Assembly: GCF_022045235.1 (NCBI RefSeq) | Contig: NW_027266341.1 | Location: 35,712,001-35,776,000 of the forward strand | Length of the DNA: 64,000 nucleotides | Direction of reading: 5' to 3' | Source: Haliotis cracherodii | Taxonomy: Eukaryota | The notes under the pieces: generated by a model | Database searches by the model: none | Told to the model about the DNA's origin: nothing | What the model saw: only the letters and a program-made list of their open reading frames with translations | Made by a program: the position numbers and the translations under genes | In this document: piece by piece, positions 31,901 to 34,900 of the stretch | Layout of the letters: every line of letters starts with the position of its first letter | Position numbering within the stretch: position 1 is the stretch's first letter

Positions 31901-34900
31901 GCCATGCTACAGGATGCTGATGGCGGGTTTCAATCCGAGATTCACCTTGTTTTTCACCCTGTGGTTGTTCATCACTAACCTGTCCTCACACTCTTAACAA
32001 TAATTGTCTTAACAAAAAATTTAAGTCATCAGGTCGAGTTAATTTGCTTGTCAGGATTTTGTTTCCTGGGCATGCCATGATCCTATGATCTAAAGTTTGA
32101 ATCCTCGATCTGCCCTCCTTATGATTATTGGTTTGTCAGTCAAAACTACAAACTGCATCACTTCTGGCTTTCCGCCAACAATAAACTGACATGCCGTGAT
32201 ATAGCTGAAATACTGTTAGCTTGGTCATACTTGGAGTTTAAAGACAGATCAGAAAATTCATCTGTATGATCAATTAGAAGTTGTACACGTCTGGGCCCCA
32301 TTTTAAAAAGCCATCTTAGCACTAAGATAATCATCTCCATACTTCAACACAGGCTTACAACAGTTGTAGTGCTAAGATCGCTTTGTGAAACGGACCCTGG
32401 ACAATTAGTTTCATGATGACATAACAGCATCCAGAGTAATCGCAACGGTAAGATTGAGAATATCCAGTGGAGCATGTTTATCAACCATCACAGTTAGTTA
32501 GCCAATCCCGGGGGAGGGACACGTTACCAAGACAACAGAAGGAAGAGAAGCACCAGTTCTTCCTCTCACCAAATCAAATTCAAACAAATTGGAGCTCAAG
32601 ACAGAATCTTATCCCACACCCAAGCACCCTAGCCAATGAACATCTTGTTCACTTCTGAGACTGACCAAAGGAAAATCTTATTACAAAACTACACTTCACT
32701 AACAACTCAAGGAAGAATTGTCGGAATGTAAATTCTCTCTACACATCGTGTCTGCAACCTGATACAGCTGCATCTTTAGCCTTTTCAAACATCTGAACAC
32801 ATCATTAGTAATTTTAACAAAATCAACTATGAATGTAATCTAGCCTCACTTGAACAAAACAATCTTAGCGCTACAGTTATCAGAGAGTTCTATCACGAGG
32901 TAAATACAGTAAAACCATGATACCTCCATCTCCCTATATATTAAAGATGCTGTACCCGATTCCAGACAATGGTCTAAACTTGGCTTCCCTCAAGTTTGCA
33001 AACACTGGTGAGCAGACTTCAAAAAGTTCACCAACATGTGTTTTCACGCGACAAATATGTGTGGTTGTTACCTAGTCCCTCTTCACTTCTCCAAAATAAC
33101 TCTGCCATTTTGTAGCAGACGTACGTAAATCATGTGATATCTACACAGCATCTGATTGGTTGTAAATAAACAAGAAACATTTAATAGCCATTTACATGTC
33201 AGAATCCAGCTTAAAACCATTTAATTATTAACCCCGTTATCGGTTAGAATAGAGATTCTATTTCTCACTAACAGTTTGTCAAACTTCCCCAAGAAGAGAG
33301 ATAGCTCTATGGATATACAGCTTGTTTATCATTTCCTCAGTGTATCGGCCAATACATCAAAAATGTCTTTCTTGAAACTGTAGGTGTACTGGCAAATTCA
33401 CCTTGAAAAGGAATCAATGTTACTATTACATGTTTAATATCCTTGATAATCCAGTGTATCATATCTTCATTCCATTATGATAAATACCCATTCATCACCA
33501 TAACTTGATTTTGAGTCTGGCTCGATTAACACAAATAGCAATCCCATCAAATCACTGTGTACTTTCAGGATTGAAGCAGCTTTATCATATAAGGCAGAGA
33601 CAACGACAGGTAACAAAGTTTTACTGTATATACCTTGATGATAGGGGTCTGGAGGTGACCAGTTAGTCAAAACCCATATTCATTTGCAATCACAGAAGTG
33701 TCAGGTATAGAATACTCCCAAGTAAACAAAAGAAAACTCAGAGAAAATAATTAAAACAAAGTGAAATAATCTACAATGAAACAGTCAGTCTCAGAAGCCA
33801 TGTTAACGAAGCTGTATCGACCTTTGCTAGCCCTCTACTTCTGCGTTCCTTTATCTTTTCGGTTAGCTGCAATAAAATATAGCAGTGCTTGTTAATGGTT
33901 AGTCGTACGACAGCAGCATACTCACCGAGGTGTTCATATCTAGCCTCTGAACAAAACCACAATCCTAATTGTTCAAACAGGATTAAATATCATTGGGTGC
34001 ATGCATGTTACAAATCAACACTTTCACAAATAGTTGTGGAACACACAGAGAAACATACACAAAAGTACAATGTTATTAAACGCAAAATAAAATACTAGAA
34101 ATATTAATGAATGCCTATTCTAGTAAAAATTCAAGAAAATCAGTTATAAGTTTCAAATAACATGTATGTTTACAATATCTTCAAAATTTCATCGAAGTTT
34201 TCAAATAGTATAAAATCTATTATAATGTATCGCCATCAAAATTTAAAAAATGTTTTATGATATATTTACATGCTGTGACAGAAATGATTATGATATATAC
34301 AGAAACAACATCTGAAACTGACAGTGATCATTAAAATTTGTCAAACTAAAAATAACCTAATAAAATCTCCCCAAATATGGCTTATGCAAGATGCACACTG
34401 CAATCAAGGGAGATCACTCTGAGTATATATGGGAGTTTAATAGGTTAGTACAGGAATAGCTTCATAATGCAAGATACGACAATGAAATATTGCACTAAAA
34501 TAAGAAATTGAAATAGTACTTGAACTGATATTCTAAGCTACAACACTTAAGTTTTGTGATATATGTTAAAATTACAGAAAAATAGGCATTATGAAATCTA
34601 GTCCATTATTAGAGAAACAGGACATCTTATCAACAGAATCAATATTGTCAGTGAGTTGGTACAACTTGTCACACAGTGTATAATATAAGACAACGCTACT
34701 ACAGTGACAGAGAACAACGAAACAACAACTTACACAAAATACACTTTGATACAACAGAAAATGTGCCATAAATTCACTAAATCTTCTTATTAAGAATTTT
34801 ACTCGGAAATGTCACTGAAGGCTTAAAGGCTTCTAGCTACTGGCTACAAAGTAGCAAATACATGATTTACATGAAGCCAAACTGTTAGAGAAGGCACAGA

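What the first reader, a model, noticed from the sequence alone, without database searches (positions are those of the whole stretch)
33634..33946. Cluster of candidate phase-0 microexons at the BEACH-WD40 junction of neurobeachin
Seen: the 4-kb intron between ...SSVMHL and TPMMF... contains three frame-preserving AG-GT cassettes on the minus strand. They are 33926-33946 (21 nt, RLDMNTS, donor GTGAGT), 33822-33866 (45 nt, [15 protein letters not shown], acceptor ttttattgcag, weak donor GTCGAT) and 33634-33648 (15 nt, TPIIK, upstream TGACTAAC). A TGCATG (Rbfox motif) lies ~50 nt upstream of the first. Recalled knowledge, to be verified: vertebrate NBEA (CFLPQ) and LRBA (YLLLQ) have a 5-aa segment at this same junction. 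Inference: an ancient regulated-microexon position, possibly expanded in this lineage.
Basis: partly seen in the sequence, partly recalled or inferred. Interest (0 to 1): 0.7.

Follow-up and report, generated by a model that had tools for sequence, protein, structure and literature searches.

The report
Abalone neurobeachin hinge alternative exons
Two of the three proposed mini-exons in this abalone neurobeachin gene are real optional exons already present in automated gene models, one of them shared by snails, clams and octopus; they are likely used one at a time to change the hinge between two protein domains, while the third candidate has no support.

Summary
The three AG-GT cassettes are at the stated coordinates. 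Cassette 2 (45 nt) is real: it is in Haliotis RefSeq proteins letter for letter, its acceptor is spliced in one run, and homologues occur in gastropods, bivalves and Octopus, including a stand-alone 45-nt exon in a bivalve-like contig. Cassette 1 (21 nt) is real: H. rufescens isoform X3 carries it alone, Gigantopelta has a similar 7-residue insert, and depth arithmetic in one run fits its inclusion. Skipping of both is also seen. The two never appear together in 12 Haliotis/Gigantopelta entries; only 59 nt separate them, with a predicted branch point 27 nt from cassette 1's donor, so steric exclusion is the likely mechanism (inferred). Cassette 3 (15 nt) has no protein or RNA support and one contig changes its donor GT to GA. 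Vertebrate NBEA and bees also have optional inserts at this junction, but the vertebrate one is unrelated in sequence, so a repeatedly used position is better supported than one ancient microexon. Tissue specificity and function are untested. A sound but modest finding: a new member of a known kind.

The parts
22828..46627 (-). 3' part of the neurobeachin gene (end of PH domain, BEACH, WD40 propeller), 19 matched coding blocks including cassette 2
   Evidence: Exact blocks against P0171 residues 2020-2786; Pfam domains of P0171; tblastn
34990..35079 (-). Upstream constitutive exon, end of BEACH domain plus 6 linker residues; phase-0 donor GTAGGT
   Evidence: PDB 1mi1/1t77 chains end 6 residues before the junction
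31023..34989 (-). 3967-nt intron holding the cassettes; removed whole in the skip isoform
   Evidence: run X8 record 25 joins 31022 to 34990
34000..34005 (-). TGCATG (Rbfox-type motif, name recalled) 53 nt upstream of cassette 1; role untested
   Evidence: count at chance level; unchanged in run X1
33926..33946 (-). Cassette 1: 21-nt alternative microexon, RLDMNTS
   Evidence: H. rufescens isoform X3 (P0174) carries it alone; Gigantopelta X3 (P0179) has KLDLKSV; inclusion in run X1 inferred from depth arithmetic
33867..33925 (-). 59-nt intron between cassettes 1 and 2
   Evidence: no gap across it in contigs of X1, X4 and X8
33898..33904 (-). GACTAAC, predicted branch point of cassette 2; branch A (33899) 27 nt from the cassette 1 donor; a second candidate at 34 nt
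   Evidence: motif match, not mapped
33822..33866 (-). Cassette 2: 45-nt alternative exon, [15 protein letters not shown], basic, conserved across three mollusc classes
   Evidence: Maps exactly to P0171 2394-2408; homologues; acceptor joint in run X6; stand-alone exon in L013
33662..33669 (-). TGACTAAC: branch-point-like for cassette 3, or a Quaking/SF1-type ACUAAC site downstream of cassette 2 (inferred)
   Evidence: motif identity from abstract of PMC13004596
33634..33648 (-). Cassette 3 candidate: 15 nt, TPIIK; probably not an exon
   Evidence: 0 of 589 fetched proteins hold the peptide; donor GT>GA in one X3 contig, depth 12.8
30845..31022 (-). Downstream constitutive exon, linker end and first strands of the WD40 propeller

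Best explanation
Abalone neurobeachin has two optional in-frame exons (21 and 45 nt) in the intron between its BEACH and WD40 domains, giving hinges with 0, 7 or 15 extra residues, and the two are likely mutually exclusive because the predicted branch point of the second lies only 27 nt from the donor of the first. Shown: both exons are spliced in and both can be skipped; the 45-nt exon is old within molluscs; the 21-nt exon is seen only in Haliotis and Gigantopelta. Inferred: U1 at cassette 1's donor and U2 at cassette 2's branch point cannot assemble together, so the cell picks one or neither; weak sites (GTCGAT donor) plus Rbfox-type and ACUAAC motifs would set the choice by tissue; the basic 14-16 residue insert would lengthen the flexible linker and alter BEACH-WD40 packing or partner/membrane binding. 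Cassette 3 is likely a chance AG-GT pair beside a regulatory ACUAAC motif. Component odds: cassettes 1 and 2 real 0.97; never co-included 0.7; steric cause 0.55; cassette 3 not an exon 0.75.
For: Proteins: of 7 Haliotis entries 5 carry cassette 2 only, 1 cassette 1 only, 1 neither; of 5 Gigantopelta entries 2, 1 and 2. Of 140 mollusc-cluster entries (isoforms, not independent species): 55 skip, 54 cassette 2 only, 10 cassette 2 plus a heterobranch V-initial segment, 3 that segment only, 2 cassette 1 only, 0 cassettes 1+2, 16 lack the junction. 13 of 14 mollusc inserts beat all 2000 shuffles against the rest, the oyster one 6 of 2000. RNA: X8 skip contig; X6 joint 33866-34990, CT..AC, depth 3.06, which bypasses cassette 1; X1 two 47-nt records with 18.0 implied letters in the cassette 1 bin, summed depth 16.4 of 57.9, and no extra depth over cassettes 2 or 3. 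L013 has the homologue as one AG-GT 45-nt exon. Spacing 27/34 nt is under the ~50-nt threshold quoted in PMC7969005 (passages). Model: insert falls in a low-confidence linker (residues 402-427, pLDDT under 50) between BEACH and the first propeller strand.
Against: Exclusivity rests on 12 automated gene models from two genera and two runs; model sets are not exhaustive. The branch point is predicted, and the threshold comes from vertebrates; L037 has a 59-nt intron at the orthologous junction, so that length alone can be spliced in some invertebrate. The cassette 1 joint is not listed by the tool; it is deduced. The X6 contig runs on past cassette 2's donor into the intron, so that donor is supported only by proteins. 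Extra conservation of the cassette block is significant in 1 of 5 comparisons (X1 8/570 vs 97/2167, p 0.0003; others p 0.09, 0.09, 0.16, 0.85); X2's 49/1055 contig spanning block and repeat was left out. For cassette 3: its sites are unchanged in X1, and it has a long AG-free zone and a good branch motif. P0171 matches the window exactly and may not be independent DNA evidence. No tissue is on record for any run.
Confidence: 0.68

Rival explanations
1. Cassettes 1 and 2 are independent cassette exons used in different tissues; co-inclusion is possible but was not sampled.
For: Small sample (12 models). A 59-nt intron exists at this junction in L037. In Physella and Biomphalaria a 10-residue V-initial segment does combine with cassette 2, though it looks like a donor extension (inferred) and is unrelated to cassette 1.
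Against: Same either/or pattern in two genera; X1 includes cassette 1 without 2, X6 reaches 2 without 1; 27-nt donor-to-branch spacing kept without gaps in X1, X4, X8.
Confidence: 0.2
2. All three cassettes are real, forming a neural SRRM3/4 (eMIC)-type microexon cluster at an ancestral bilaterian microexon position.
For: Optional inserts at the same junction in vertebrate NBEA (with/without forms among cichlid entries) and bees (9 of 15 with, 6 without). Three of 6 hymenopteran inserts score weakly above shuffles against mollusc cassette 2 (2, 20, 37 of 2000). Zebrafish lrba has a 15-nt neural, eMIC-dependent microexon of undetermined position (PMC12626424 supplement).
Against: Cassette 3 unsupported. 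Bird inserts unrelated; the other three hymenopteran inserts at chance (412-442 of 2000). No insert in Lineus (0 of 7), Lingula (0 of 1), tick (0 of 3), barnacle (0 of 8), chiton (0 of 2), Mytilus (0 of 15); only 1 of 26 metagenome loci with the whole intron has a cassette 2 homologue. Cassette 1 has no UGC nearer than -55 and an AG at -20. The mouse Nbea eMIC microexon is 9 nt, not 15.
Confidence: 0.1
3. Cassette 2's acceptor also opens a terminal exon: read-through of the weak GTCGAT donor adds 16 residues and stops, giving a neurobeachin without the WD40 propeller.
For: The X6 contig splices into cassette 2 and continues into the intron; stop after 16 codons and AATAAA/ATTAAA at 33438, 33225, 33185. 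A mouse Nbea cryptic last exon is reported (bioRxiv 10.64898/2026.01.30.702498, passage; position not seen).
Against: One contig at depth 3.06; a part-spliced precursor or an assembly merge explains it equally; no such truncated protein among the 7 Haliotis entries.
Confidence: 0.1

Closest known systems
Neural microexons regulated by SRRM3/4 (nSR100) or Srrm234 eMIC (PMC4387716, PMC8797185, PMC12626424; passages and supplement rows seen)
   Same: Short, frame-preserving, weak splice sites, next to an interaction domain of a vesicle-trafficking scaffold; Nbea itself is a listed target.
   Different: The known mouse Nbea microexon is 9 nt (MmuEX0030987); cassette 2 is 45 nt, outside the 3-27 nt class; cassette 1 lacks a near UGC and a long AG-free zone; neural bias and eMIC dependence untested.
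Mutually exclusive exons enforced by a branch point close to the upstream donor (OGDH 4a/4b, PMC7969005 passages; alpha-tropomyosin 2/3, recalled)
   Same: Predicted branch point 27-34 nt from the upstream 5' splice site, within the 25-41 nt range given for OGDH; the two exons are not seen together.
   Different: Both exons are often skipped; they are not duplicates and differ in length; the branch point is at a normal distance from its acceptor because the intron is only 59 nt; not mapped.
Optional CFLPQ segment of vertebrate NBEA and 14-18 residue insert of hymenopteran rugose/neurobeachin
   Same: Same junction, in frame, present or absent among isoforms.
   Different: Vertebrate sequence unrelated, bee sequence at most weakly similar; both end in Q after hydrophobic residues and birds have a nested longer form, which fits upstream acceptors rather than cassettes (inferred, not tested).
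RefSeq models XP_048243611-16 (Haliotis rufescens) and XP_071088035 (H. cracherodii)
   Same: Already encode cassette 2 (5 entries), cassette 1 (X3) and the skip form (X4).
   Different: Automated models only; none encodes cassette 3; no analysis of exclusivity or conservation found in the paper searches.

Membership tests
Neurobeachin/LRBA (host gene) | PH-BEACH-WD40 C-terminus with DUF1088 and DUF4704 upstream | tested here: met
   Window exons match P0171 2020-2786 exactly; P0171 has all these Pfam domains; best folds 1mi1 and 1t77. The upstream domains lie outside the matched part of the window.
Neural eMIC/SRRM4 microexon | Length 3-27 nt | tested here: inconclusive
   Met by cassette 1 (21 nt), not by cassette 2 (45 nt, in the 28-51 class of PMC12626424); cassette 3 fits the length but is not shown spliced.
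Neural eMIC/SRRM4 microexon | Frame-preserving and alternatively included | tested here: met
   Cassettes 1 and 2. Not shown for cassette 3.
Neural eMIC/SRRM4 microexon | UGC close to the 3' splice site and long AG exclusion zone | tested here: not met
   Cassette 1: UGC at -55/-59, AG at -20; cassette 2: UGC at -18 and -5 but AG at -23; cassette 3: UGC -40, AG -68. Features from PMC8797185 and PMC4387716 passages.
Neural eMIC/SRRM4 microexon | Neuron-enriched inclusion and dependence on the eMIC factor | not testable with these tools
   No tissue or library on record for the runs; contigs only.
Neural eMIC/SRRM4 microexon | Encoded residues in or beside an interaction domain | tested here: met
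   Six residues after the BEACH end, before the first propeller strand.
Sterically enforced mutually exclusive exons | Two exons never included together | tested here: inconclusive
   0 of 12 Haliotis/Gigantopelta models and neither of two informative runs co-include; sample small.
Sterically enforced mutually exclusive exons | Branch point under about 50 nt from the upstream donor | tested here: inconclusive
   Predicted at 27 or 34 nt; the whole intron is 59 nt; not mapped.
Classical mutually exclusive exon pair | Exactly one exon always included; usually duplicates of like length | tested here: not met
   Skip form in X8 and in RefSeq X4; 7 versus 15 residues with no visible likeness.
Orthologue of the vertebrate NBEA CFLPQ segment | Same junction | tested here: met
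Orthologue of the vertebrate NBEA CFLPQ segment | Sequence homology | tested here: not met
   Bird inserts versus mollusc cassette 2: 570 and 347 of 2000 shuffles reach the score. Five residues give little power.
Orthologue of the vertebrate NBEA CFLPQ segment | Same splicing type (cassette exon) | not testable with these tools
   No vertebrate or insect genome DNA was at hand.

The most novel reading that the evidence does not exclude
The BEACH-WD40 hinge of neurobeachin is a nervous-system splicing switch kept since the protostome ancestor: the mollusc 14-16 residue basic exon and the bee 14-residue insert descend from one exon, vertebrates refilled the same slot, and abalone-line snails added a microexon that sterically locks out the old exon, tuning how this trafficking scaffold docks its propeller.
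Probability: 0.15. Interest if true: 0.6.

Novelty: new member of a known kind. Interest (0 to 1): 0.38.

Why it matters
Neurobeachin is a neuronal trafficking scaffold linked to synapse function and autism (recalled), and no solved structure in the PDB sequence search covers the BEACH-WD40 junction. An exon kept across gastropods, bivalves and cephalopods, plus optional inserts at the same point in bees and vertebrates, marks this hinge as a tolerated and probably regulated site and gives ready-made natural variants to test. It also offers a compact candidate for steric exon exclusion in a mollusc, a group for which the paper searches showed no microexon study by title. The exons themselves are already in automated annotation, which caps the surprise.

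Tried and rejected
Run search listed no holder on record as RNA; runs X1-X4, X6, X8, X13 were laid as 'RNA?' guesses, 7 of the 22 listed; no DNA run was laid. First lay was swamped by intronic repeats and its joint table was cut. No inclusion piece for any cassette appeared in X2, X3, X4, X8 or X13; contigs drop rare forms, so this is no evidence of absence. First fold (P0014, mean pLDDT 45.5) was uninformative and dropped; the second (oyster P0254, mean 74.2) places the insert but is under 50 there, so the drawn helix is not relied on. Idea that heterobranch SIINK is cassette 3: rejected, since L013 has the matching tail inside one 45-nt exon. No cassette 1 or 3 homologue and no flank similarity above shuffles in L013. 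Heterobranch VC(Y/F)PP segments resemble CFLPQ slightly (13, 39, 525 of 2000): short, post hoc, not used. Second genomic copy of the cassette block: none found. Paper searches (listings only unless stated): neurobeachin+microexon 1 paper; rugose/microexon/Srrm234 14, none with rugose among the 11 listed; Nbea+microexon 5; neurobeachin+alternative splicing+BEACH+WD40+isoform 3; microexon+mollusc 20, 15 listed; LRBA+microexon 0; abalone+neurobeachin 0; none describes this junction by title or abstract start. The original 2014 microexon catalogue was not available, bioRxiv supplements were not seen and one supplement of PMC4387716 was not searched; these could list an NBEA/LRBA event here. Earlier scan findings: none. 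No complex prediction was run: no binding claim is made.

Full report
Observation. On sequence alone this is weak: the 3967-nt intron has 150 stop-free in-frame AG..GT cassettes of 3-51 nt, in which the three rank 2, 5 and 9 on a rough matrix, and the TGCATG count is at chance.

Host gene. The minus strand from 46627 to 22828 encodes the end of the PH domain, BEACH and WD40 of neurobeachin. Its exons match the Haliotis cracherodii protein P0171 exactly over residues 2020-2786, two junction residues aside, so the window is from an abalone, and P0171 may not be independent DNA evidence. BEACH ends at residue 2387, the solved PH-BEACH chains end at the same motif, and the junction is 6 residues later. 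In a model of an oyster isoform the insert lies in a low-confidence linker before the first propeller strand.

Cassette 2 is a real, old exon. It maps exactly to P0171 2394-2408 and is in 5 of 7 Haliotis entries. Homologous 14-16 residue basic inserts occur in Gigantopelta, Patella, Pomacea, Plakobranchus, Physella, Biomphalaria, Bulinus, scallops, clams, Dreissena, oysters and Octopus; 13 of 14 tested beat all 2000 shuffles, one had 6 of 2000. It was not seen in Mytilus (0 of 15) or a chiton (0 of 2). Metagenome locus L013 has it as one AG-GT 45-nt exon between 730- and 960-nt introns; it is the only one of 26 loci with the whole intron to score (35.7; next 9.2), most others being annelid-like by likeness to Helobdella. 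In run X6 a contig joins the upstream exon to its acceptor (33866-34990, CT..AC, depth 3.06) but then runs on into the intron, so the donor is supported by proteins only.

Cassette 1 is a real microexon of narrower range. H. rufescens isoform X3 carries RLDMNTS alone and Gigantopelta X3 carries KLDLKSV alone (74 of 5000 shuffles reach their score). RefSeq isoform models rest on RNA-seq alignments as general practice (recalled; not checked for these records). In run X1 the joint is not listed, but a 47-nt record lies with 29 letters on the end of the upstream exon; two exon bins both imply a ninth record of depth 8.5; the only excess depth lies in the cassette 1 bin and equals 18.0 letters at depth 16.4; and the wider lay adds 21 letters at depth 15.3. 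This is an inference from arithmetic. The ratio 16.4 of 57.9 is contig word depth, not a measured inclusion level. Full skipping is shown by a 6063-nt contig in X8 and by RefSeq X4.

Cassette 3 is unsupported. The peptide is in 0 of 589 fetched proteins, of which 478 hold the junction anchor and only 7 are Haliotis; no 5-residue insert is listed for any mollusc. One X3 contig (depth 12.8) changes the donor GT to GA, while X1, the same coded organism, keeps it. In X4 the block on that side is no more conserved than the rest of the intron (9/241 vs 25/599). In its favour are a 68-nt AG-free zone and a strong branch-like motif. That motif also matches the ACUAA sequence for which SF1 and Quaking compete (abstract of PMC13004596) and may instead regulate cassette 2 (inference). 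I put it at about 0.25 as an exon.

Mechanism. Cassettes 1 and 2 are not together in any of 12 Haliotis and Gigantopelta models; X1 shows 1 without 2 and X6 reaches 2 without 1. They are 59 nt apart, with branch-point motifs 27 and 34 nt from cassette 1's donor, below the roughly 50-nt steric threshold cited in PMC7969005 (passages). I commit to steric exclusion with optional double skipping: three hinges of +0, +7, +15 residues. Against: small sample, unmapped branch point, a vertebrate threshold, and a 59-nt intron at this junction in L037. Conservation of the block against the rest of the intron is significant in 1 of 5 comparisons. The effect on the protein is inferred only.

Other animals. 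Vertebrate NBEA has CFLPQ in 94 of 120 entries and lacks it in 26; 7 bird entries have a longer form ending in the same five residues. Bees have a 14-residue insert in 9 of 15 members. Nemertean, brachiopod, tick and barnacle entries have none. Bird inserts are unrelated to cassette 2; hymenopteran ones give 2, 20, 37, 412, 414 and 442 of 2000, a hint at most. Whether these are cassettes or acceptor extensions could not be tested. The published eMIC-dependent mouse Nbea microexon is 9 nt (supplement rows of PMC4387716 and PMC8797185); zebrafish has a 24-nt nbeaa and a 15-nt lrba neural microexon whose positions in the protein I could not determine (supplement rows of PMC12626424).

Comparison and novelty. 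It works like a short alternative exon pair beside an interaction domain; it does not pass as an eMIC-type microexon cluster (cis-features not met, regulation untested) nor as a classical duplicated exon pair. Both real exons are already in RefSeq. The conservation across molluscs and the likely exclusivity were not found in the paper searches run (listings only, subscription journals not covered). Other papers seen: PMC4387716, PMC8797185, PMC12626424 passages; two preprints, one passage each.

Verdict. Observation confirmed; interpretation partly supported; new member of a known kind; interest 0.38.

Noticed in passing
window 24766-25070: A 75-nt tandem repeat (4.1 copies) duplicates the acceptor and first 13 codons of a neurobeachin WD40 exon. 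The nearest upstream copy would add 25 residues in frame; the next copy's acceptor reads as a stop. P0171 uses the last copy.
   Followed up: partly
window 224-10385 (+): 3' end of a HECT ligase gene facing neurobeachin (HECT hit at 10068-10382; HERC2-like by recall). A 58-nt repeat of 41 copies at 224-2583 carries a piece that reads like one of its exons.
   Followed up: partly
window 29014-29812, 29974-30697, 35532-35960, 37011-37576, 22943-23323: Minisatellites lie close to several neurobeachin exon boundaries.
   Followed up: no
window 26902-26949 (-): Short partial copy of the exon at 26772-26875 just upstream of it.
   Followed up: no
window 46630-64000: No further neurobeachin exon was matched upstream of residue 2019 over about 17 kb, so a long intron falls in the PH domain; a nested mab-21 gene is known at such a place in other animals (recalled).
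   Followed up: no
P0172 residues 131-133 (outside the window): H. rufescens isoforms differ by a 3-residue insert near the N-terminus; mouse Nbea has a 9-nt eMIC microexon. Whether they correspond, or this is an alternative donor, was not tested.
   Followed up: partly
P0047, P0220, P0038 (heterobranch snails): A 10-residue segment starting with V sits at the same junction, alone or before cassette 2; probably a downstream donor of the upstream exon.
   Followed up: partly
window 31356-31802, 32101-32398, 33442-33590, from 35137: High-copy interspersed repeats in and beside the intron, seen as very deep cover in all four runs.
   Followed up: no
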